Shown in pieces: positions 2,711 to 50,218 of a stretch of DNA of 64,000 nt. Both the position numbers and the translations under genes were made by a program. Position 1 is the stretch's first letter. Every line of letters starts with the position of its first letter. The notes below the pieces were generated by a model. It had not been told where the DNA came from. It did not search any database and saw only the letters and a list, made by a program, of their open reading frames with translations. Source of the stretch: a virus; the UHGV virus genome UHGV-0212524; one strand, given 5' to 3'.

Positions 2711-4996
2711 ATGAAAGATACCCGAATCTCTAATTTAGAGAAACTCGTAGAAGCCGGTACTAGTCTGGCCCAAAACGTCATCGGCAACAACACCGCCAGC
2801 GAAATGTGGAATACGATTGTTGCAGGCGAGTCCGTACGTAGCAACGCAAAAGTATTTGGCGCTCTGCGTGACGAAGCATCACAGCACTATGCCAACGCTT
2901 TTGGCGGCAAGAAAATGTCTCATGCTGCGACTGTCGCCTCCGCAATGATTCTGGGCGCAGCTAACCACGGTAAAGACCTGCAAGAACGTGTTGCCCAGGA
3001 ATACGCTAAGCCGGAATTCCACAGCAAGTATAACCTGGATATTGGTATCCCTGGTGCGCAAGGTGGTGACTGGGGTCGTGAGCGCATGGTTGTTGCTCAG
3101 GAATACTATAGCAACAAAGACTACGACAAAAACCTGGGCCTGACCTGGACCCTGAACGTACGTGCTCTGGAAACTCAGTCCAAGTTTGCTGAAACACTGT
3201 TCCCGACCATTACCGTTGACACCAACGATGTTGGTATTACCGTACGTACTAAAGTGACTACCGTTTCTCGCGGTATCATGAACGCGCTGCTGAGCAAAGA
3301 CGTGGTTGAAGACCATCGTCGTCCGCTGCACAACGCACTGACTGACCACACCGTTCTCCAGGACGAAGCGATCAACATCGTTCCTTACGTAATGGAAACC
3401 GGTGAAAACCAGGAATACTTCGTAAGCGAAGAACTGGTTCCGAACGAAACCGTTCGCCTGGGTCGTGTACCTCCGTATCCGACTAACTACCTGAGCTTTG
3501 CAAACGACACGCTGAACCTGTTCCAGCTGTCTGCGCATCCGGGTATCGTTCAGGAAGGTTACGATGAAACTGATGAAATCGCACCGGGTTGTGCTCTGGG
3601 CAGCCTGCTGATTTCTGTACGTAAACCGACCGAAGAAGCGAGAGCGGGTAAATTCATCAAACTGCACGTTCGTGACATGCAGTTCGCAACCTTCCAGCGT
3701 CCTGCTGAAGGTGACGGCCGTGAACTGGTTCTGCAATTCCGTCGTACCGCGTTCTCTCTGAATGCGAAAACCACCGACTGGACTGGTGCAGCTATTCCGG
3801 CTCTGCAAGCACTGGGTCAGAACTCCTACACCCTGCGCTACGTTATCACCATCACCATGTCCCTGTTCACCAGCGGCCAGTTCGGTGGTAAAGTAGACAT
3901 TTCCGGCCACAAACTGGAAATCGAAGGTCTGTACGATGCAACTGGTAACAAAGTTGATACCAAGTCTGGCACCGGTAAAGTTATCCTGGACGGCCTGAAG
4001 CTCGAACTGATGGGCTGGCGCTTCGATGGTACTCGTACCAACGAAAACCGTCGTACCCAGGGTCTGCTGCTTGACCCAATTTGGGAACAGGAAAACTACA
4101 AACTGCAATACGGTTCTCCGATTCTGACCAAGTCTCCAGTTGGTGTTGAATACGACGACACTGAACGTCTGGACGACCTGATCTCTGCGGTGAACATCCG
4201 TAACGAACAGCTGGCGATTACTCAGACGCTGTCTTACACCGAAGCAGTACGTAACGCAGCCGCTGCGATGATCACTCCGTGGGACAAACCGGCCATCCGT
4301 GGTCTGGGCCGTCACTGGGTTGCTCCGTGGTTCAAAGAGTCTGACTACAAAGTCGATGAAGTTGTTCAGTCTCTGGATACCAAAGAAGCGCTGATCAACG
4401 CTCGTCAGGGTCTGTTGCAGCGTATCGGTAGCCAGGTAACTCAGGCTATCCAGGATTCTCGTTTCATTCCTGCACTGCGCCTGCTGACCGCTGATCCGGA
4501 CATTCTGCCGAAAGTTATTATCGCAACTGACGAACCGACTGCATCTATGCTGCTGCTGGTTCAGGGCGACCAACGTCTGCTGGGCGACCGTTATGAATAC
4601 GAAGTCGTTACCACCAACGATGACCGCTGGCGTATCTACAACGCAGCTGACGATTCCTGGACTCGTCGTCTGCAATGGTTCCTGAAAGTTCCGACTGCGG
4701 ACGATGGTTCCTACTGCGTACTGAACTGGGGTAACCACTTCTGGTCTCCGATCATGGTTACCAACATCAACATCCAGCGTAACGGTTCTACTTCTAAAGA
4801 ACTGGCTGTACAGCCGCGTAACGCGCATATCTGCCACTGCCCGATCACTGGTCTGATTTGGGTTAAAGGCATCACCAAACTGGTTGAAGAAAAACTGGCT
4901 TACAACGTTTCTGTAGAACAGAACGGTCAGAAACAAACCGAAGGTGGTGTAGCAGGTAATGTTGCTGGCGACGGTAAAGACAAAGCTGGTAAATAA
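2711..4996 (+). CDS. putative major capsid protein (761 aa), highly expressed structural gene
   Basis: extreme bias toward E. coli-optimal codons (CGT, CTG, GGT, AAC, ACC), strong terminator directly downstream; size matches the ~740-750 aa capsid proteins of phiKZ-like phages; a 905-aa acidic-tailed protein lies five genes downstream. Confidence 0.45.
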   Translation: MKDTRISNLEKLVEAGTSLAQNVIGNNTASEMWNTIVAGESVRSNAKVFGALRDEASQHYANAFGGKKMSHAATVASAMILGAANHGKDLQERVAQEYAKPEFHSKYNLDIGIPGAQGGDWGRERMVVAQEYYSNKDYDKNLGLTWTLNVRALETQSKFAETLFPTITVDTNDVGITVRTKVTTVSRGIMNALLSKDVVEDHRRPLHNALTDHTVLQDEAINIVPYVMETGENQEYFVSEELVPNETVRLGRVPPYPTNYLSFANDTLNLFQLSAHPGIVQEGYDETDEIAPGCALGSLLISVRKPTEEARAGKFIKLHVRDMQFATFQRPAEGDGRELVLQFRRTAFSLNAKTTDWTGAAIPALQALGQNSYTLRYVITITMSLFTSGQFGGKVDISGHKLEIEGLYDATGNKVDTKSGTGKVILDGLKLELMGWRFDGTRTNENRRTQGLLLDPIWEQENYKLQYGSPILTKSPVGVEYDDTERLDDLISAVNIRNEQLAITQTLSYTEAVRNAAAAMITPWDKPAIRGLGRHWVAPWFKESDYKVDEVVQSLDTKEALINARQGLLQRIGSQVTQAIQDSRFIPALRLLTADPDILPKVIIATDEPTASMLLLVQGDQRLLGDRYEYEVVTTNDDRWRIYNAADDSWTRRLQWFLKVPTADDGSYCVLNWGNHFWSPIMVTNINIQRNGSTSKELAVQPRNAHICHCPITGLIWVKGITKLVEEKLAYNVSVEQNGQKQTEGGVAGNVAGDGKDKAGK

Positions 4997-25385: not shown

Positions 25386-25421
25386 ACCCCTACCAATCGG
25401 TAGGGGCGGGTTTCTTTTTTA
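25386..25421 (+). terminator. rho-independent terminator
   Basis: CCCCTACC-AATCG-GTAGGGG hairpin plus T-tract. Confidence 0.75.
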
Positions 25422-26147: not shown

Positions 26148-26184
26148 ACCCCTACCTTCGGGTAGGGGGTTATTTAATTTTTTC
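26148..26184 (+). terminator. rho-independent terminator
   Basis: CCCCTACC-TTCG-GGTAGGGGG hairpin plus T-tract; same hairpin family as 25386. Confidence 0.8.
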
Positions 26185-26209
26185 TCAGATAGATATTACC
26201 TTAGTGAGA
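26185..26209 (+). promoter_or_regulatory. conserved promoter-like motif TCAGATAGATATTACCTTAGTGAGA
   Basis: near-identical to copies at 46575 and 50194; follows a terminator and precedes gene 26260; followed by an inverted repeat. Confidence 0.45.
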
Positions 26210-26259: not shown

Positions 26260-26943
26260 ATGGCACCGAGAACTAAGAAAACTGAAGTTAAAGAAACTGT
26301 AGAAAAACCGATTGATACTAAGGAAGCAGAAGTTAAACAGGGTGGGCCTAGCAAGAAGCTTGCGCTTATGCCGCCCGCCACAGAAATACACGGGGATAAA
26401 ATCTTAAGTTACACTCCGCGTGCGAGTTTAACGATCGATATTTACCATTACCCGGTATTCGACCTGTACACGCTTGTCTGTCGACTCGACGATGAGGTAC
26501 TGGCAGTCGTGCCAGGTATCCACAAAGAAAAACTGCTTACGGGTTCAGTCATTAGCGAGATTTTCCTGCGCCTGATGTTTAAATCAGACGATAAGATGAT
26601 CAGCCAGATTGCTAGTAAATTGACTGACTTCTTTGTTGAGGCTTCAACGTGGTTAGGCTTTCACCCAACGGCTTATTTCGTTTTCGACACCAAAATGTTG
26701 TATGCTGAAATGGGCGATAGTGTTAAGTATCCTATCTTGCTTAATGAAGAAGTCGTTCCGTTTTCCCTTACCAGTCCTAACAAACATCTTCGCTTTCATC
26801 CGGCGTTAGAAAACCTGATTGAATACAATCGGTTGGAAAAATATTACGCTTATCATCGCATGTTCTTTGAACTTCTGCGTGATAAATTAAGAGGCAAAGT
26901 TCCAGATTCTAGTGCAGCATTCACTAGTTCTAAGCTTTGGTAG
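26260..26943 (+). CDS. hypothetical protein (227 aa)
   Basis: ORF between terminators. Confidence 0.55.
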   Translation: MAPRTKKTEVKETVEKPIDTKEAEVKQGGPSKKLALMPPATEIHGDKILSYTPRASLTIDIYHYPVFDLYTLVCRLDDEVLAVVPGIHKEKLLTGSVISEIFLRLMFKSDDKMISQIASKLTDFFVEASTWLGFHPTAYFVFDTKMLYAEMGDSVKYPILLNEEVVPFSLTSPNKHLRFHPALENLIEYNRLEKYYAYHRMFFELLRDKLRGKVPDSSAAFTSSKLW

Positions 26944-26954
26944 TTTGTAACAAA

Positions 26955-26984
26955 CAGGGAGCTTCGGCTCCCTTTTTCTTTTTA
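26955..26984 (+). terminator. rho-independent terminator
   Basis: AGGGAGC-TTCG-GCTCCCT hairpin plus T-tract. Confidence 0.8.
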
Positions 26985-27029
26985 CAACTTTTTCTTTTGT
27001 TGTGAGGAAAGCCGATAAGGAGTATTAAA

Positions 27030-28016
27030 ATGGTATATCGTAAAACGATAGAAAGAACCTCTTCTGATTTAACCGTAGGACGCTTAACCCGTAGAGATAT
27101 TCGCAATCCTCAGCTTCAGGCATGTTTAACGGGGCCTAACGGTGCGGCGATTCGTGAAGCACTGTGCAATACTGAGCTGAATACGTTCTCTTTACAAAAA
27201 GGAAAAACAATCCAAGGGTTTATCATCACAAAACACATTTACGGTGACCCAACGTTACACTGCTTGTATATGCATGAAATTGTACCTGGGTGTTTGAACA
27301 AACTGAGCCTTCTATTGGTACTTGACTATACTGGGTTTACGTACCTTAACCGAATTGCCAGAGGTGTGGAAGAAATTGCTGAGCTTAACGATTTAGGGTT
27401 TAGACATACCCACACAGCATATCGTTTAGGTACGCGTAAGCTACTGGATGTCACTTTACCGACGAACGTGAAGAACGTCTCCGGCGACTTCTATAAAGAC
27501 TTAACCAGAGCACAACGTGAACAGCTCATGACGTTGTTTGGCACTAGCGTTGTTGAAAACATCAATGCTGACCCTGTGACGCGTTCTCGACAAATAATGC
27601 CGCAAGTTGAAACGCTGGTGGAGTTAGTGCGTCACGTCAATCACTACACTTACGTTTGGATGGACGGTAACGACATTGTGGGTGTGGTGCAAGTTAAATC
27701 ACGCAATCTTAGCGAGTGCGAACTAAAAGCCATTGCGGTAAGTGAATCACACCGGGGCCGTGGGATTGGGCGTGCGTTGTTGTACCGTGCTTTACAGATT
27801 GCATCGACAACAGCAGCACCATTAGAAATAGGGTGTTACAATAACAACCCAGCATTTAGACACCTGGCTGTAGATTTGTTTAAATTCCGTCCCTACGAGT
27901 ACGAATTTGTTTTAGTGCGCGACGACGATGTCGTCAGTTGGGAGCGTCGGAAAAACCGCGTCGAGTTAGTGTTAGGCGACGAAATGTCATCGTTACAAGG
28001 CGGAATTAATGCATAA
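27030..28016 (+). CDS. protein with C-terminal GNAT acetyltransferase-like domain (328 aa)
   Basis: C-terminal IAVSESHRGRGIGRALLYRALQIA matches the GNAT acetyl-CoA binding motif. Confidence 0.5.
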   Translation: MVYRKTIERTSSDLTVGRLTRRDIRNPQLQACLTGPNGAAIREALCNTELNTFSLQKGKTIQGFIITKHIYGDPTLHCLYMHEIVPGCLNKLSLLLVLDYTGFTYLNRIARGVEEIAELNDLGFRHTHTAYRLGTRKLLDVTLPTNVKNVSGDFYKDLTRAQREQLMTLFGTSVVENINADPVTRSRQIMPQVETLVELVRHVNHYTYVWMDGNDIVGVVQVKSRNLSECELKAIAVSESHRGRGIGRALLYRALQIASTTAAPLEIGCYNNNPAFRHLAVDLFKFRPYEYEFVLVRDDDVVSWERRKNRVELVLGDEMSSLQGGINA

Positions 28017-28824
28017 ACCAATTATAAAGTGGATGGGTGGCAAATCGCGGATTATCGACACCTTATTACAAGTCTTACCTGAACGTACAACATTCGTTGA
28101 ACCGTTTGTTGGTGCAGGGTCGGTGTTTTTGAACACACGTTATAAACGTTACATTCTTGCTGACTCTAACCCTGACTTAATTCAGTTGCTGAACGTGGCG
28201 AAAGACCAACCTGAAGAACTTATCTTAAAGTCGAAACCGCTATTCGAAGACGGTAACGATTGTATTAAGTATATGGAGAGACGAGAACTGTTTAATCGCG
28301 AAACGGATATGGCTCCGTTAGACCGTGCTGCAATGTTTCTGTATTTAATGCGTCACGGTTTTAACGGGATGTGTCGTTACAACGGCAGCGGTGGTTTTAA
28401 CGTTCCGTTTGGTCGCTATCCTAACGGTGTGTATTACCCGTTAGAAGAGATTCGTGGTTGGGCTAAACGTTGTCAAGAACCGGAATACTTAGAAATTGTT
28501 TGTGAAGATTTCCGAACAGTTTTAGAGCGTACACCGGAAGACAGCGTGATTTACGCAGACCCACCTTATATACCGCTCTCAGAGACCGCTAAACACGCCC
28601 AATACCATCGGAAGGAGTTTTCCCAGGCTGACCATCGAGAACTCGCCAGAGCGCTGTTTAAGCAGGTTGAGAAGGGGAATAGCGTTGTGTTGTCCAATGC
28701 AGATACGTTACTAACGCGTGAGATTTATTACGGGTTCGAATGGCGTTCTGTAGAAGTAGGGCGATACATGGGTGCGTCAGGTGCTGCTCGTAAAACGGTA
28801 ACGGAATTGTTAGGAGTGCTCTAA
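28009..28824 (+). CDS. dam: DNA adenine methyltransferase (Dam family, GATC-type N6-adenine MTase)
   Basis: KWMGGK N-terminus, FVEPFVGAGSVFLNT SAM-binding motif, YADPPY catalytic DPPY motif and LSNADTLLTREIY; collinear with E. coli Dam. Confidence 0.85.
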   Translation: MHKPIIKWMGGKSRIIDTLLQVLPERTTFVEPFVGAGSVFLNTRYKRYILADSNPDLIQLLNVAKDQPEELILKSKPLFEDGNDCIKYMERRELFNRETDMAPLDRAAMFLYLMRHGFNGMCRYNGSGGFNVPFGRYPNGVYYPLEEIRGWAKRCQEPEYLEIVCEDFRTVLERTPEDSVIYADPPYIPLSETAKHAQYHRKEFSQADHRELARALFKQVEKGNSVVLSNADTLLTREIYYGFEWRSVEVGRYMGASGAARKTVTELLGVL

Positions 28825-29597
28825 TGCGTATAGTGGATATCCACGATTATCGTAATGACCATTTAGCGATTGGTGTAGAAGGTAAAATGGTTTCGTTAAC
28901 CCGTGTACGCAAAGGGTTAATGGAAAAGGAAATCATTCGGGAATCTGAAGACCCTACCTTTATCATCCTTTCGAATACTAACCAATTACAGGGCATCTTT
29001 TCAGGGCGTGCAGACGGTAAGATTTTCTATATGTCCGCAATCGTTGTGTTTGCGAAGAAGAACATCAACTTCGCCCAACTCAAACGTCTGTTAAACGTGA
29101 AGATGTTTGACGTTACCTACCCTGCTAATGACCTAAAACGTCGTGATCAGTTAATGACGTTTTTGGGTATGCAACCAACGTCTATCGATTATGACCTTAC
29201 GATTACTGAGAAGCCAGAAGTACGTACTGACTTACCTGACGTGGTCGACGTTGAATCCCTAACGTTAGAAGAGACGTTTACGATTCCTAAGGTTGTTAAT
29301 GTCAGCCTCGACACGCACTGTTTAGGGTTGTTAGCCGTAGGTGCGGCAGAAGGGCTGTGTTGTCGTAAAGACGGTAAGGTTGAAGGTATCTTAGTCTATT
29401 CGAAAATCAATGAAAAGACGTTTGCCACCGAAGGTTTTTTCTATAACGACTGTACTTACGGAAACGCACTGCTAACCACGTATTTCCGTATTGCTTATCT
29501 GAAAGGCGCAACTGTTCGCCTCACGTTTCCATACACAGCCCCACCGTCTATGGGTGGAGTTGAGGTAGAACCATTAACCGGCCACTTTATCTTTTAA
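28824..29597 (+). CDS. hypothetical protein (257 aa)
   Basis: ORF. Confidence 0.55.
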   Translation: MRIVDIHDYRNDHLAIGVEGKMVSLTRVRKGLMEKEIIRESEDPTFIILSNTNQLQGIFSGRADGKIFYMSAIVVFAKKNINFAQLKRLLNVKMFDVTYPANDLKRRDQLMTFLGMQPTSIDYDLTITEKPEVRTDLPDVVDVESLTLEETFTIPKVVNVSLDTHCLGLLAVGAAEGLCCRKDGKVEGILVYSKINEKTFATEGFFYNDCTYGNALLTTYFRIAYLKGATVRLTFPYTAPPSMGGVEVEPLTGHFIF

Positions 29598-29606
29598 GGA
29601 TGATGA

Positions 29607-29834
29607 ATGGAAATCAAACGTATTGTAACCAAAAACAAACAGATTGTTTACGTCGCAGGTGATAACGAATTCTCGGCGGTAATCAACAGCGAAAATGCGC
29701 TCATTATCGGTTATCCGGGTAAAGTTATTACGCGCAGTCACCAACGTGTGATTGACAAACTTATCGCAAAAGCGAAAGCGCGTGACGGTGTTGGTTCAGT
29801 ACAAACCCACACGGGGTTAACGCTGGCCCTCTAG
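29607..29834 (+). CDS. hypothetical small protein (75 aa)
   Basis: ORF. Confidence 0.45.
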   Translation: MEIKRIVTKNKQIVYVAGDNEFSAVINSENALIIGYPGKVITRSHQRVIDKLIAKAKARDGVGSVQTHTGLTLAL

Positions 29835-29873
29835 TCAGCAGGTAATATGACCTCTTAACTGGAGACTTTAATA

Positions 29874-30380
29874 ATGAGTGAGACTCTGGATTTTAATCAG
29901 CTCGAACAACACGATTTCGACCTCGGTGTTCGTGATATCGATGCTGATTATGAAACACGTTGTAAAGAGCTGTTTAACCGTTACGGTCAGCTCATCACCG
30001 GTGCCTCTGACGACACCGAATTCAGTTTAGATGAGTTTGAAAAAGCTCTGTCGTGTTTTATCACTGACTGTCTGGCGAAGAAAGCGTTGCTGGTCGAACT
30101 GAACTTAGACTCCGTCGAACCTACTGATGCCCATGCTGTGTTGAAAGAATCCATCATCCCAACTGATGAGATTATGGACACTGTCGCAGGTATTCGTGGT
30201 ACGTTTGAAACTGCCGTAGAAGAGTACACGGAACAGCTTCGTGAATCAGGACTGACGTTGTGTGCGCCAGCAGGTGAGCCATTACCGTCCGACGAAGAAA
30301 CTGAAGAAGCGCGTAGTCGCTTAGCGCGTTATGTCATTACGTCTATCTTGGTAGATGATCGCGAAGAGAATCTGCTGTAA
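29874..30380 (+). CDS. highly acidic protein (168 aa), DNA-mimic/anti-restriction candidate
   Basis: about 40 Asp/Glu versus about 14 Lys/Arg by manual count; lies 3' of the Dam gene. Confidence 0.5.
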   Translation: MSETLDFNQLEQHDFDLGVRDIDADYETRCKELFNRYGQLITGASDDTEFSLDEFEKALSCFITDCLAKKALLVELNLDSVEPTDAHAVLKESIIPTDEIMDTVAGIRGTFETAVEEYTEQLRESGLTLCAPAGEPLPSDEETEEARSRLARYVITSILVDDREENLL

Positions 30381-30385
30381 GCTGC

Positions 30386-30424
30386 CCCTCTCTCCGTTTG
30401 GAGAGAGGGTGTATTTATTTTACG
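30386..30424 (+). terminator. rho-independent terminator
   Basis: CCCCTCTCTCC-GTTT-GGAGAGAGGG hairpin plus T-rich tract. Confidence 0.8.
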
Positions 30425-30461
30425 CGTATAGCCGTAGTTATGCACAAGTAAACAAAATTAA

Positions 30462-30794
30462 TTGAGGAACAATCTGATGTGGTTAAGTGCTATTCACCGT
30501 GATTTGCCAAAACGTGACGTGTCGTTTACTGTTGATGACGCACCGATCGCGGTAGGCGTCGCGAAATTCGAAAGAATCGAAGAAGGGCAGTTTGTTGTAA
30601 TGGATGGCAACGACAACGAATTTATGTTGTATCATCCAGAAGTGGATACCTCTGAAATTTGTGACGGTGTTCTTTTGTTGTCCTGGCAAAAACCTGAAAC
30701 CAAAGAATGGATGTGGTGTGTTGCTAAACCGACGAATGAAGCCGGAACCGCATACGTGTTTGGGGAAATTTATGTCGAACCAGAACCACACTAA
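30462..30794 (+). CDS. hypothetical protein (110 aa)
   Basis: ORF. Confidence 0.5.
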   Translation: MRNNLMWLSAIHRDLPKRDVSFTVDDAPIAVGVAKFERIEEGQFVVMDGNDNEFMLYHPEVDTSEICDGVLLLSWQKPETKEWMWCVAKPTNEAGTAYVFGEIYVEPEPH

Positions 30795-30838
30795 TTTCGA
30801 TATAACTTCAGCATTGTGTTGTTAATGGTCTAAAAAAT

Positions 30839-30880
30839 TTAAGATATATTTCATCTATGTGAGAATTCTCACTTAACTAA
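30839..30880 (+). promoter_or_regulatory. promoter-like motif variant (TAAGATATATTTCATCTATGTGAGAATTCTCAC)
   Basis: shares GATATAT..TGTGAGA plus palindrome plus CTTAACTAA with the 50194 copy; upstream of gene 30896. Confidence 0.35.
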
Positions 30881-30895
30881 ATGGAGTAATCTAAA

Positions 30896-31165
30896 ATGGC
30901 TAAGATTTACATTGTTGAGAAACGTGCGGGTAATGTTCTTTCCTATTACGAAGAAGGTAAACCTGAAAAAGTTAAAACACTCAAACTCGACGGGTATGAA
31001 GTGAAGAGTTTACGCAAGGGTGTGAAGATTACCTTTAAAGGTCTGGTTCGCGCAGGTAACTTACACATTGTTAAGGCCGATGGTACGATGGCTGCGTTAG
31101 CACCTGTCAGTGCTGCGAAAACGACAGCCGGTCGTGGCTGCTACGGTAGCAGTCGTAAGATTTAA
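30896..31165 (+). CDS. hypothetical protein (89 aa)
   Basis: ORF followed by terminator. Confidence 0.5.
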   Translation: MAKIYIVEKRAGNVLSYYEEGKPEKVKTLKLDGYEVKSLRKGVKITFKGLVRAGNLHIVKADGTMAALAPVSAAKTTAGRGCYGSSRKI

Positions 31166-31171
31166 GCAGTG

Positions 31172-31210
31172 CCCCTCTCTCCTAATGGAGAGAGGGTACT
31201 TTTATTTTTC
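31172..31210 (+). terminator. rho-independent terminator
   Basis: CCCCTCTCTCC-TAAT-GGAGAGAGGG hairpin plus T-tract; near-identical stem to 30386. Confidence 0.8.
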
Positions 31211-31223
31211 TTCGAGGTGTGTG

Positions 31224-31712
31224 ATGACAACGGTATTAGTAACAAAGGATTACATTTTAGCTGATCGGTTGGTTGATTACGGCGGCACAGTTAAAGAGCT
31301 TCCTAAATTACACAAATACAAAAACAAATTCGTTGTTTACACTGGGGAACGTGTATTGGACTCGGATCTCTGGAAAACGACGATAATGTCCGGAGCAGAA
31401 AAATATTTGATCGAAGAAAAGCGAACTAAGGTTGAAGAGATATTTAAAGATCTTATCGAAAAAGAACAACTTTTCGATCAGGTTATCATTTTTACAGCTA
31501 AGGAAACACACTGGCTCGGGCTGCTAGAGGGTAAATTTGAATCTCGTGTACTGAATAAAAACACGGTTTGGGCAACGGGTTCGGGTCAAGGTTTTGCTCG
31601 AGCAGCATGGGCAACAGGTATAACCGAAAAGAATATCATTCCCTTAGTAGGTTCGATTGATACAGCTTCATCACAAACGTACGACTTATTTTACAGGAAG
31701 CACTTACGATGA
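31224..31712 (+). CDS. HslV/proteasome-like Ntn-hydrolase candidate (162 aa)
   Basis: Met-Thr-Thr N-terminus (MTTVLVTKDYILADRLV) and ATGSGQGFARAAWA resemble the HslV N-terminal Thr nucleophile and GSGG motif; start placed after the terminator. Confidence 0.4.
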   Translation: MTTVLVTKDYILADRLVDYGGTVKELPKLHKYKNKFVVYTGERVLDSDLWKTTIMSGAEKYLIEEKRTKVEEIFKDLIEKEQLFDQVIIFTAKETHWLGLLEGKFESRVLNKNTVWATGSGQGFARAAWATGITEKNIIPLVGSIDTASSQTYDLFYRKHLR

Positions 31713-35669: not shown

Positions 35670-35716
35670 TCCTACCGCCCGATTCTATGGGCGGTAGGTG
35701 TTTTATTTTTTTTTGA
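35670..35716 (+). terminator. rho-independent terminator
   Basis: CCTACCGCCC..GGGCGGTAGG hairpin followed by a long T-tract. Confidence 0.8.
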
Positions 35717-35730
35717 TCTCGGAGGGTTAA

Positions 35731-36294
35731 GTGGCCACACCATACGTACCTGATTTGAGTCTGACCTCAGCAGAGCTAGTGGTCGCTTTAATCAATCACG
35801 ATAATGGGTTACAGCTTACGCTAAACGAAATACGTATTAGCGGGACCGTAACAAACTCATCTCCAACAACTTCGCGTCGTAACACCATTACCGAAATCAG
35901 TAAAATCAGAAAACCAGATGGTGCGTCTGTTGTGGTTTATTACGACAGACTCGACGCAGATGAAGTATTAACGTATGAACCCATTCTGATTTCGTTAGAC
36001 GGTACTGAAGACAACGTTCGTGACATTCTTAGTGTTGTAAATGAATTCTGCGGAACGAACTTACAACCCGAGGATTTACGTGCTTCAGATATCACTTTAG
36101 GTAACGATCCCATTTCCGTTAACGTTGCCGACGATTCTCCTGCGTGGATGAACGCGTTTATGGTGACGTTGTTTGATACAACCGAACGGGCATTAGCAAA
36201 CGAAGAAGATGCAATCTTCTGTATTGGTGACAATGCCGTTCTTACATTCGAGGTTACAGATGGCGACAGCACTGAAGAAGACGAGACTCCATGA
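35731..36294 (+). CDS. paralog-family protein (187 aa), first gene of the tail-fibre module
   Basis: GTG start with GGAGGG RBS; shares PDLSLTS...YYxRL...CGxNLQPxDL with 45858..46370. Confidence 0.55.
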   Translation: MATPYVPDLSLTSAELVVALINHDNGLQLTLNEIRISGTVTNSSPTTSRRNTITEISKIRKPDGASVVVYYDRLDADEVLTYEPILISLDGTEDNVRDILSVVNEFCGTNLQPEDLRASDITLGNDPISVNVADDSPAWMNAFMVTLFDTTERALANEEDAIFCIGDNAVLTFEVTDGDSTEEDETP

Positions 36295-46528: not shown

Positions 46529-46576
46529 AGGTAGTAGGGGCTAAGCCCCTACTACCTTTCTTTTTTATTTTTTCTC
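46529..46576 (+). terminator. rho-independent terminator
   Basis: AGGTAGTAGGGG-CTAA-GCCCCTACTACCT hairpin plus T-tract. Confidence 0.8.
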
Positions 46577-46599
46577 AGATATATATTACCTAGGGGAGA
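46575..46599 (+). promoter_or_regulatory. conserved promoter-like motif TCAGATATATATTACCTAGGGGAGA
   Basis: contains TATATTAC; directly after a terminator T-tract; followed by an inverted repeat (GAGAGCGAA..TTCGCTCT). Confidence 0.45.
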
Positions 46600-50193: not shown

Positions 50194-50218
50194 TCAGATA
50201 TATATTACCTAGGTGAGA
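50194..50218 (+). promoter_or_regulatory. conserved promoter-like motif TCAGATATATATTACCTAGGTGAGA
   Basis: contains TATATTAC; followed by inverted repeat GTGAGAG..CTCTCAC and CTTAACTAAA; upstream of gene 50265. Confidence 0.45.

What the first reader, a model, noticed from the sequence alone, without database searches (positions are those of the whole stretch)
28009..30380. Dam methyltransferase followed by a strongly acidic protein: anti-restriction module candidate
The Dam-family MTase is unambiguous (DPPY, FxGxG). Three genes downstream, 29874..30380 encodes a 168-aa protein with net charge about -26, Ocr/ArdA-like in composition. Together they would protect phage DNA by methylation and by DNA mimicry of restriction enzymes.
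Basis: partly seen in the sequence, partly recalled or inferred. Interest (0 to 1): 0.45.

Follow-up and report, generated by a model that had tools for sequence, protein, structure and literature searches.

The report
Dam methylase plus conserved acidic orphan protein
A giant, nucleus-forming phage carries an ordinary Dam-type DNA methylase and, in the same predicted transcription unit, a very acidic protein of unknown function; both are conserved backbone genes of the phage's clade, and nothing beyond its charge links the acidic protein to known anti-restriction proteins.

Summary
ORF 28009-28824 is a Dam-family N6-adenine methyltransferase. ORF 29874-30380, the third gene downstream, encodes a 168-aa protein with net charge -26.

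The window comes from an undescribed relative of Salmonella phage SPN3US and Erwinia phage Asesino, which are nucleus-forming jumbo phages. The two genes are orthologues of SPN3US gp105 and gp109.

Terminator-like hairpins bracket a five-gene unit: GNAT, Dam, a 257-aa gene, a 75-aa gene and the acidic gene. Co-transcription is therefore plausible.

The "anti-restriction module" reading is weakly supported:
- **Distribution.** The acidic protein is in all 62 clade records. The Dam orthologue is in 53 and is absent from Phobos (whole genome checked), so the two genes are not an obligate pair.
- **No link to known families.** The acidic family has no sequence or fold similarity to Ocr, ArdA or any solved structure, and no relatives outside the clade.
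- **Constraint.** It is under strong purifying selection (dN/dS about 0.05). Its acidity is conserved (-18 to -26), as are short motifs at both termini.

My best guess is a polyanionic binding or decoy protein with an unknown partner. GATC is depleted across the clade whether or not Dam is present. Overall this is ordinary, with a modest chance of a new mimic family.

The parts
26956..26973 (+). Terminator-like hairpin (AGGGAGC-TTCG-GCTCCCT plus T-run), followed by TTTTTAC. It marks the upstream boundary of the predicted transcription unit.
   Evidence: An equivalent hairpin plus TTTTTAC lies upstream of the GNAT gene in SPN3US and pEa_SNUABM_6.
27030..28016 (+). 328-aa protein with a C-terminal GNAT acetyltransferase domain (orthologue of SPN3US gp104). 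Its stop overlaps the Dam start by 8 nt.
   Evidence: Pfam PF00583 E=5e-12 at residues 198-279; phrog_8663; overlap seen.
28009..28824 (+). Orphan Dam-family N6-adenine DNA methyltransferase (orthologue of SPN3US gp105). FVGAG is at nt 28105-28119 and DPPY at nt 28558-28569.
   Evidence: It is 73% identical to phiEaH2 Dam and 67% to the SPN3US-group Dam. No endonuclease partner is evident among the neighbouring genes.
28824..29597 (+). 257-aa protein of unknown function (phrog_9941, nearest SPN3US gp106). Its start shares one base with the Dam stop.
   Evidence: No PDB or Pfam match. dN/dS 0.03.
29607..29834 (+). 75-aa basic protein (net +5, pI 9.9; phrog_7896, orthologue of SPN3US gp108).
   Evidence: A homologue is also present in Phobos and CR5, about 8-9 kb upstream of their acidic gene.
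29874..30380 (+). 168-aa strongly acidic all-alpha protein (orthologue of SPN3US gp109, phrog_8221). It has a conserved N-terminal peptide (residues 9-20, QLxQHDFDLxVR) and a conserved C-terminal tail (LxDDREE).
30386..30409 (+). Strong terminator-like hairpin (CCCTCTCTCC-GTTT-GGAGAGAGGG plus T-rich tail), 6 nt after the acidic gene's stop. It marks the downstream boundary of the unit and coincides with a jump in divergence.
   Evidence: A hairpin at the same boundary occurs in SPN3US, pEa_SNUABM_6, Asesino and Wellington. dS jumps here.

Best explanation
This region is the local copy of a conserved backbone block (SPN3US gp104-gp109) of the SPN3US/Asesino-like clade of nucleus-forming jumbo phages. 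It is not a mobile anti-restriction cassette.

(1) The 271-aa protein is an orphan, E. coli-Dam-like methyltransferase. It most likely methylates GATC adenines on phage DNA. I infer that it substitutes for host Dam. The methylation would mark or partly protect phage DNA from GATC-directed nucleases.

(2) The 168-aa protein belongs to a clade-restricted orphan family. Its conserved features are a large negative charge, a helical core, a disordered but highly conserved N-terminal peptide and an acidic C-terminal tail. I infer that it acts by binding another protein. Most likely it is a polyanionic decoy (a nucleic-acid mimic in the broad sense) for a basic nucleic-acid-binding protein. The target is unknown and need not be a restriction enzyme.

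Shown here: gene identity, conservation, purifying selection, the predicted operon boundaries, and the absence of similarity to known families. Inferred: GATC specificity, co-transcription and the decoy mechanism.
For: Dam:
- PF02086 E=1e-57.
- TIGR00571 above its cut-off.
- E=1e-63 to E. coli Dam 2g1p. K9, N120, R124 and P134 are identical; Y119 is F and L122 is M (alignment; the roles of these residues are from my memory of Horton et al. 2006).
- Best PADLOC model is 'orphan methyltransferase'.

Clade context:
- The acidic protein hits 62 phage records.
- The major capsid protein hits 61 records at >=60% identity, with near-identical counts by host-genus name (one Salmonella record more for the acidic protein).
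- SPN3US and Asesino are experimentally nucleus-forming (PMC13282480, PMC11724907).

Operon:
- The GNAT/Dam and Dam/257-aa genes overlap, and the remaining gaps are 9 and 39 nt.
- Hairpins bracket the unit and are conserved in relatives.
- Divergence from a close relative is uniformly low inside the unit and jumps straight after it.

Acidic protein:
- Net charge is -18 to -26 in homologues down to about 26-30% identity.
- 17 acidic positions are conserved in >=80% of sequences.
- The most conserved blocks are residues 11-20 and 151-168, and residues 1-10 are predicted disordered.
- dN/dS is 0.055.
- The AF2 model is all-alpha, pLDDT 82.5.
Against: - No partner, localisation or expression data exist for any member of the acidic family. 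No paper in the library mentions SPN3US gp109.
- Many conserved residues are not acidic (Q9, Q12, H13, F15, R20, Y37, F55, K57, R108, R152, R163). That fits a specific protein-protein interface or even a catalytic role as well as it fits a mimic.
- The tertiary model is uncertain. pTM is 0.67, and the BFVD model of the Kwan homologue superposes only at TM 0.44-0.48.
- GATC stays 2-5-fold depleted in Dam-carrying members, so Dam methylation is evidently not a complete answer to whatever selects against GATC.
- GATC specificity itself is not shown.
Confidence: 0.4

Rival explanations
1. Dam and the acidic protein form an anti-restriction pair. Dam masks GATC sites. The acidic protein is an Ocr/ArdA-like DNA mimic that blocks type I (or BREX-type) systems early in infection, before the phage nucleus exists.
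For:
- Acidity is conserved across the family.
- The two genes share one predicted transcription unit.
- The hosts are Enterobacterales, which commonly carry type I systems (general knowledge).
- Chimalliviruses are now known to carry at least one extra anti-defence gene, AdfM (PMC13309987).
Against: - No Ocr or ArdA Pfam hit for any of 34 family members.
- hhalign against Ocr gave probability 0.2%.
- The gene is clade-core and syntenic, not accessory.
- It is retained in Phobos, which has no Dam.
- It evolves under strong purifying selection.
- The unit is not preceded by the candidate early-promoter motif found elsewhere in the window.
- The phage nucleus and the early infection vesicle are described as already shielding the DNA of related phages from type I/II restriction (PMC12908238).
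Confidence: 0.1
2. The acidic protein serves the phage's own machinery rather than host defence. Possible roles are a chaperone or neutraliser for basic phage proteins (for instance the adjacent 75-aa basic protein or internal head proteins), a replication or transcription accessory factor, or an adaptor or substrate of the phage HslV/HslU-like protease encoded a few genes downstream.
For: - It is universal in the clade with very low dN/dS, like housekeeping phage genes.
- It has conserved non-acidic residues and terminal peptide motifs typical of specific partner docking.
- The C-terminus is an acidic run that usually ends in L, F or I. From general knowledge this recalls SSB-type acidic tails and protease recognition tags.
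- An HslV-like gene lies 2-3 genes downstream in the window, Phobos and CR5.
- A basic 75-aa protein is encoded immediately upstream.
Against: - The 75-aa homologue is 8-9 kb away in Phobos and CR5, so adjacency is not conserved.
- No similarity to any known chaperone, scaffold or adaptor was found.
- It has not been reported among SPN3US virion proteins (no mention found; this is weak evidence).
- There is no direct evidence for any partner.
Confidence: 0.3
3. Dam has a regulatory or packaging role, such as timing of replication, transcription or terminase cleavage (as for P1 pac), rather than protection. The acidic protein is functionally unrelated to it.
For: - GATC is strongly depleted even in Dam-carrying members: O/E 0.21-0.46. 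A few retained sites could act as signals.
- Only two GATC sites lie in 26900-30500.
- Dam orthologues are missing from one whole lineage that is otherwise collinear, so Dam is dispensable for the clade's basic cycle.
- Known phage precedents exist: P1 Dam-dependent pac cleavage and Mu mom regulation (general knowledge).
Against: - The trend of depletion, although overlapping, fits relaxed avoidance where Dam is present. Dam-less Phobos is at 0.09 and CR5 at 0.17, against 0.21-0.46 in Dam-carrying members.
- No clustered GATC sites or candidate regulatory sites were identified.
Confidence: 0.15

Closest known systems
E. coli Dam / phage orphan Dam methyltransferases (D12 class, TIGR00571; SPN3US gp105, phiEaH2 Dam)
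   Same: - Full-length alignment to E. coli Dam (E=1e-63) with FxGxG and DPPY motifs.
- Most residues that I recall as GATC-contacting are conserved.
- It is an orphan with no endonuclease neighbour.
- It is 67-73% identical to the Dam of related jumbo phages.
   Different: - It scores below NCBI's E. coli Dam equivalog cut-off: 255.6 against 441 bits.
- Y119 is F and L122 is M.
- It is encoded by a phage whose relatives SPN3US and Asesino form a phage nucleus during infection (PMC13282480).
- The genome is itself 2-fold depleted in GATC.
T7 Ocr (gp0.3), DNA-mimic anti-restriction protein
   Same: Small, all-helical and strongly acidic, with a similar net charge.
   Different: - No sequence similarity (hhalign probability 0.2%; no PF08684 hit).
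- No detectable fold similarity.
- It is not the first gene at a leading genome end but sits in a central conserved block.
- It has conserved N- and C-terminal peptide motifs and many conserved non-acidic residues.
ArdA (conjugative-element anti-restriction DNA mimic)
   Same: About 165-170 aa with a net charge near -25 to -30 (the ArdA figures are from general knowledge).
   Different: ArdA is a three-domain alpha/beta protein, whereas the model here is all-alpha. There is no PF07275 hit and no fold hit.
SPN3US gp109 / phrog_8221 family (hypothetical proteins of Seoulvirus, Erskinevirus, Machinavirus, Wellingtonvirus, Derbicusvirus)
   Same: A true orthologue: 36-59% identity over the full length and the same genomic position.
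   Different: The window's copy is from a lineage with no near-DNA match in the phage collection. Its closest relatives (88-97% identical) are in gut metagenomes and Salmonella assemblies. No function is known for any member.

Membership tests
Dam family (D12-class N6-adenine MTase, TIGR00571) | Profile match above curated thresholds | tested here: met
   PF02086 195.9 bits against 22. TIGR00571 254.7 bits against 114.85.
Dam family (D12-class N6-adenine MTase, TIGR00571) | Catalytic motif IV (DPPY) and AdoMet motif I (FxGxG) | tested here: met
   DPPY at residues 184-187 and FVGAG at residues 33-37.
E. coli Dam equivalog (GATC-specific) | Score above the NF008152 equivalog cut-off | tested here: not met
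   255.6 bits against a cut-off of 441. It is therefore a Dam-family member, not an E. coli Dam equivalog by NCBI's criterion.
E. coli Dam equivalog (GATC-specific) | Conservation of DNA-contact residues (K9, Y119, N120, L122, R124, P134; roles recalled from Horton et al. 2006) | tested here: inconclusive
   K, N, R and P are identical; Y is F and L is M (alignment). This is consistent with GATC specificity but is not proof.
E. coli Dam equivalog (GATC-specific) | m6A at GATC on phage DNA | not testable with these tools
   Needs DpnI/DpnII digestion or long-read methylome data.
Ocr (T7 gp0.3) DNA mimics | Sequence or profile similarity (PF08684) | tested here: not met
   No Pfam hit at E<=0.1 for the window protein, nor at E<=1 for 34 members. 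hhalign against Ocr gave probability 0.2% (Ocr sequence from memory).
Ocr (T7 gp0.3) DNA mimics | Ocr fold (elongated helical dimer mimicking bent B-DNA) | tested here: not met
Ocr (T7 gp0.3) DNA mimics | Strong, conserved negative surface charge | tested here: met
   Net -26. The family ranges from -18 to -26, and 17 acidic positions are conserved in >=80% of sequences. Surface geometry was not assessed.
Ocr (T7 gp0.3) DNA mimics | Binding to and inhibition of type I R-M enzymes | not testable with these tools
   Needs plating or binding assays.
ArdA anti-restriction proteins | PF07275 match / three-domain alpha-beta fold | tested here: not met
   No Pfam hit. The model is all-alpha. No fold hit.
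Functional two-gene 'module' (Dam + acidic protein) | Co-transcription | tested here: inconclusive
   Same strand with overlapping or short intergenic spacing. Bracketing terminator-like hairpins are conserved in relatives. No transcript data are available.
Functional two-gene 'module' (Dam + acidic protein) | Co-inheritance across genomes | tested here: not met
   The acidic gene is in 62 records and the Dam orthologue in 53. The whole Phobos genome has the acidic gene but no Dam at E<=1.

The most novel reading that the evidence does not exclude
The gp109-like family is a new-fold nucleic-acid mimic. All SPN3US-like nucleus-forming phages would deploy it against a cytoplasmic host factor: a restriction or BREX-type system, or a nucleoid or RNA-binding protein. 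That would show that the phage nucleus and early infection vesicle do not make such counter-defence redundant. Together with clade-wide GATC avoidance and a phage Dam, it would point to a GATC-directed or DNA-directed threat that still reaches these shielded genomes.
Probability: 0.1. Interest if true: 0.65.

Novelty: new member of a known kind. Interest (0 to 1): 0.3.

Why it matters
In the related phages PhiKZ and PhiPA3 the phage nucleus shields the DNA from restriction enzymes and DNA-targeting CRISPR systems. Recent work (AdfM, PMC13309987) shows that this shield is not sufficient on its own.

A universally conserved, strongly acidic orphan protein sitting in one predicted unit with a Dam methylase is a reasonable candidate for a further host-interaction factor. 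It is also directly testable, because genetic tools such as amber mutants exist for SPN3US.

As it stands, though, both genes have long been present in some 60 published genomes. Dam is annotated there and the acidic protein is listed as hypothetical. No evidence beyond composition links the acidic protein to anti-restriction. The practical value here is a corrected, bounded annotation and a short list of decisive experiments.

Tried and rejected
- **Near-DNA search of 27000-31200 against phage genomes:** no match, so the lineage is new at the DNA level.
- **Word-indexed and exhaustive HMMER searches with the family profile:** 44 and 16 hits, all from the same family. Nothing outside the clade and no annotated relative.
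- **tblastn with the distant metagenomic member P0050:** it only re-finds the same phages.
- **PDB sequence search with the profile:** only coiled-coil noise, BICD at E=0.015.
- **NCBIfam and PADLOC:** nothing for the acidic, 257-aa or 75-aa proteins.
- **75-aa basic protein as a constant neighbour:** rejected. In Phobos and CR5 its homologue lies 8-9 kb upstream.
- **110-aa downstream gene as a constant neighbour:** rejected. Phobos gp122 is unrelated.
- **257-aa protein as a degenerate GNAT:** hhalign E=0.07, unconvincing. PDB gave nothing.
- **PhiKZ early-promoter octamer TATATTAC:** not enriched on its own, 4 against 2.2 expected. A longer motif is enriched but does not precede this unit.
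- **Bipartite pattern TTTTTAC-N(14-24)-TATGTGA:** zero exact hits in the window.
- **tRNA and Rfam scans:** nothing.
- **Literature:** no paper mentions SPN3US gp109. No methyltransferase data were found in the Chimalliviridae reviews and papers consulted.
- **Exact-sequence look-up of the window protein:** not on record.
Full report
**What is there**

The finding's coordinates hold four tightly packed + strand genes:
- 28009-28824, 271 aa.
- 28824-29597, 257 aa.
- 29607-29834, 75 aa.
- 29874-30380, 168 aa.

The first is a Dam-family methyltransferase:
- Pfam PF02086, E=1.3e-57.
- TIGR00571, 254.7 bits against a cut-off of 114.85.
- E=1e-63 over its full length to the E. coli Dam crystal structure 2g1p.
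- FVGAG at residues 33-37 and DPPY at residues 184-187.

The last ORF has 40 acidic and 14 basic residues, giving net -26 and pI 4.1. It is the most acidic per residue of 79 crude gene calls in the window, about 3 SD from the mean.

**Where the window comes from**

There is no near-identical DNA in 50,697 phage records. The proteins, however, place the window in the clade of Salmonella phage SPN3US (Seoulvirus) and the Erwinia phages Asesino/phiEaH2 (Erskinevirus), Machina, Wellington and Phobos/CR5 (Derbicusvirus).
- The major head protein (2711-4996) is 78-80% identical to those of phiEaH2, Asesino and SPN3US.
- SPN3US and Asesino are experimentally shown to build a phage nucleus (PMC13282480; PMC11724907). 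"Seoul-like" phages all encode chimallin (bioRxiv 10.1101/2024.12.31.630880).
- Relatives with a 97%-identical acidic protein and the same gene order occur in a human gut metagenome and a Salmonella assembly.
- Dam is the orthologue of SPN3US gp105, and the acidic protein is the orthologue of gp109.

**Anatomy of the unit**

- The upstream GNAT-domain gene (27030-28016) overlaps the Dam start by 8 nt.
- The Dam stop shares a base with the next start.
- The remaining gaps are 9 and 39 nt.
- Terminator-like hairpins followed by T-runs lie at 26956-26973 and at 30386-30409, the latter 6 nt after the acidic gene's stop.
- The same hairpin plus TTTTTAC arrangement is found upstream of the GNAT gene in SPN3US and pEa_SNUABM_6. 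It is also found after the acidic gene in SPN3US, pEa_SNUABM_6, Asesino and Wellington.
- Against the gut-metagenome relative, synonymous divergence is 0.07-0.26 from 26260 to 30380. It jumps to 0.84-1.2 in the next three genes, so a recombination boundary coincides with the terminator.

I therefore infer a five-gene transcription unit: GNAT, Dam, 257-aa, 75-aa, acidic. This is a prediction, because no transcript data exist. A 16-nt AT-rich motif, CAGATATATATTACCT, occurs three times in intergenic DNA; none of 100 shuffles reached the four matches found at up to three mismatches. It resembles the early-promoter type described for jumbo phages (PMC7598289). It precedes the gene upstream (26260) but not this unit, so an immediate-early class is not indicated.

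**Is it a module?**

| Gene | Phage records |
|---|---|
| Acidic family | 62 |
| Major capsid protein at >=60% identity | 61, near-identical counts by host-genus name |
| Dam orthologue (>=49% identity, about 2.7 kb upstream of the acidic gene) | 53 |

The acidic gene is thus clade-core. The nine records without the Dam orthologue are the Derbicusvirus records (Phobos, EarlPhillipIV, Derbicus, pEa_SNUABM_38, CR5).

I assembled the whole Phobos genome and searched it with tblastn:
- No Dam at E<=1.
- Acidic protein present, 44% identical (gp121).
- The 75-aa homologue lies 8 kb upstream.
- An HslV-like gene lies two genes downstream.

The 50-kb CR5 segment I examined shows the same layout. The two genes are therefore linked by conserved synteny and probably by co-transcription. 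They are not an obligate pair.

**The acidic protein**

- *Distribution.* An exhaustive HMMER search of 1.84 billion representative proteins with a 34-sequence profile found 16 proteins, all from the same family.
- *Charge.* Net charge is -18 to -26 in nearly all members, down to 26-30% identity. Seventeen acidic positions are conserved in >=80% of sequences.
- *Other conserved residues.* Many non-acidic residues are also conserved: Q9, Q12, H13, F15, R20, Y37, F55, K57, R108, R152, R163. The best-conserved blocks are residues 11-20 and 151-168.
- *Structure.* AlphaFold2 (pLDDT 82.5, pTM 0.67) predicts five helices, with residues 1-10 disordered.
- *Profile searches.* No Pfam family reaches threshold. 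Seven members give sub-threshold GatC hits, which I regard as chance.
- *Selection.* dN/dS against the close relative is 0.055.

The family is real and constrained. Its charge is evidently selected. It is not a member of the Ocr or ArdA families.

**Mechanism**

The combination is a conserved polyanionic surface, a conserved flexible N-terminal peptide, and an acidic C-terminal tail that usually ends in L, F or I. This points to a protein that works by binding another protein.

My preferred reading (about 0.4) is a decoy or nucleic-acid mimic for a basic nucleic-acid-binding protein whose identity is open. A phage-internal role comes close behind it (about 0.3): chaperone or neutraliser of basic phage proteins, or adaptor or substrate of the nearby HslV/U-like protease. 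The specific Ocr-like anti-type-I model gets about 0.1, for four reasons:
- Its only support is composition.
- The gene behaves as a core gene, not an accessory one.
- It survives without Dam.
- In the related phages PhiKZ and PhiPA3, the nucleus and early infection vesicle are described as shielding the DNA from type I/II restriction (PMC12908238).

The AdfM precedent shows that extra anti-defence genes do exist in this family (PMC13309987).

**Dam**

The alignment to E. coli Dam keeps K9, N120, R124 and P134; Y119 becomes F and L122 becomes M. The roles of these residues are from my memory of the EcoDam-DNA structure paper. GATC specificity is therefore likely but not shown. The score is below NCBI's E. 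coli Dam equivalog cut-off. No endonuclease partner is evident among the neighbouring genes, and the best PADLOC model is "orphan methyltransferase".

GATC is depleted throughout the clade:

| Genome or segment | Dam orthologue | GATC observed/expected |
|---|---|---|
| Window, 64 kb | present | 0.46 |
| SPN3US, 62 kb | present | 0.36 |
| Asesino, 58 kb | present | 0.21 |
| Phobos, whole genome (87 sites against 933 expected) | absent | 0.09 |
| CR5, 50 kb | not found | 0.17 |

The trend fits partial relaxation of avoidance where Dam is present. The ranges nearly touch, and the Dam-less genomes are one lineage. Classical explanations for GATC avoidance in enterobacterial phages involve MutH or undermethylation (general knowledge). 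Why a nucleus-shielded genome should show avoidance is unexplained.

**Verdict**

The genes are orthologues of long-sequenced SPN3US-type genes, so novelty is low. Residual interest lies in a universally conserved acidic orphan protein of nucleus-forming phages and in the pattern of GATC avoidance alongside Dam.

Noticed in passing
whole window; L001+L018 (SPN3US), L004+L019 (Asesino), L008-L012 (Phobos), L017 (CR5): GATC is the most or second most depleted 4-nt palindrome throughout the clade. Observed/expected is 0.46 (window), 0.36 (SPN3US) and 0.21 (Asesino) in Dam-carrying phages. It is 0.09 in Phobos (87 sites against 933 expected) and 0.17 in CR5, which lack the Dam orthologue. Avoidance of the phage's own probable methylation site in a nucleus-forming phage is unexplained.
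   Followed up: partly
window 26186-26201, 46576-46591, 50195-50210 (+): The AT-rich motif CAGATA(T/G)ATATTACCT occurs three times, always intergenic on the + strand. With up to three mismatches the search found four matches, and no shuffle of 100 reached that number. It is a candidate early (virion RNA polymerase) promoter consensus for this phage. A similar CAGATAGATATTATCT follows the acidic gene in Phobos (L005 about 4494-4509).
   Followed up: partly
window 30386-30409 and 31173-31196 (+); also 25387-25406, 26149-26168, 26956-26973, 35671-35698: Strong terminator-like hairpins follow many genes, and two of them have identical stems (CCCTCTCTCC/GGAGAGAGGG). Each is followed by a T-run ending in TTTAC. 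Often a TATG(T/C)-type box lies about 25 nt further on, before the next gene. The arrangement is conserved in SPN3US, pEa_SNUABM_6, Asesino and Wellington. These may be combined terminator and middle/late promoter cassettes.
   Followed up: partly
window 35731-36294 (+): A second very acidic ORF (187 aa, net -25, pI 4.05). It matches PHROG virion structural protein families (phrog_2935, phrog_1037), so strong acidity alone does not mark anti-restriction function in this genome.
   Followed up: partly
window 30381-31712 vs L013: Mosaic boundary. Against a gut-metagenome relative, dS is 0.07-0.26 for genes 26260-30380 but 0.84-1.2 for the next three genes (30477-31712). This implies recombination at the terminator after the acidic gene.
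   Followed up: partly
window 31224-31712 (+): An HslV-family peptidase-like gene (phrog_1040) lies 2-3 genes after the acidic gene. The same is true in Phobos (gp123) and CR5 (CR5_121), both of which also encode an HslU-domain ATPase further downstream.
   Followed up: no
window 2879-4936 (-): A 685-aa antisense ORF lies entirely inside the major head protein gene (2711-4996, +). It is probably a by-product of codon usage and was not examined.
   Followed up: no
window 28824-29597 vs L001 4064-5689: The window has a single 257-aa gene where SPN3US, Asesino, Wellington and pEa_SNUABM_6 have two divergent paralogues (gp106 and gp107). Phobos and CR5 instead annotate two GNAT-like genes plus a hypothetical gene after the thymidylate kinase gene.
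   Followed up: partly
window 29874-30380, residues about 54-99 of homologues P0005, P0006, P0008, P0016, P0019: Sub-threshold similarity to Pfam GatC (PF02686; best 21.2 bits against a 23-bit cut-off) in 7 of 34 family members. It is centred on the conserved LNELNFxGVEP segment and is probably chance.
   Followed up: partly
L013-L016 (relatives of the window phage): Phages carrying a 97%-identical acidic protein in the same gene order occur in a human gut metagenome (ERZ918790), a JGI metagenome and a Salmonella assembly (GCA_008579845.1). This fits reports of 'persistent' Seoul-like jumbo phages in bacterial assemblies. These relatives carry a 119-aa HTH gene upstream of the 227-aa gene, where the window has thymidylate kinase directly upstream.
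   Followed up: no
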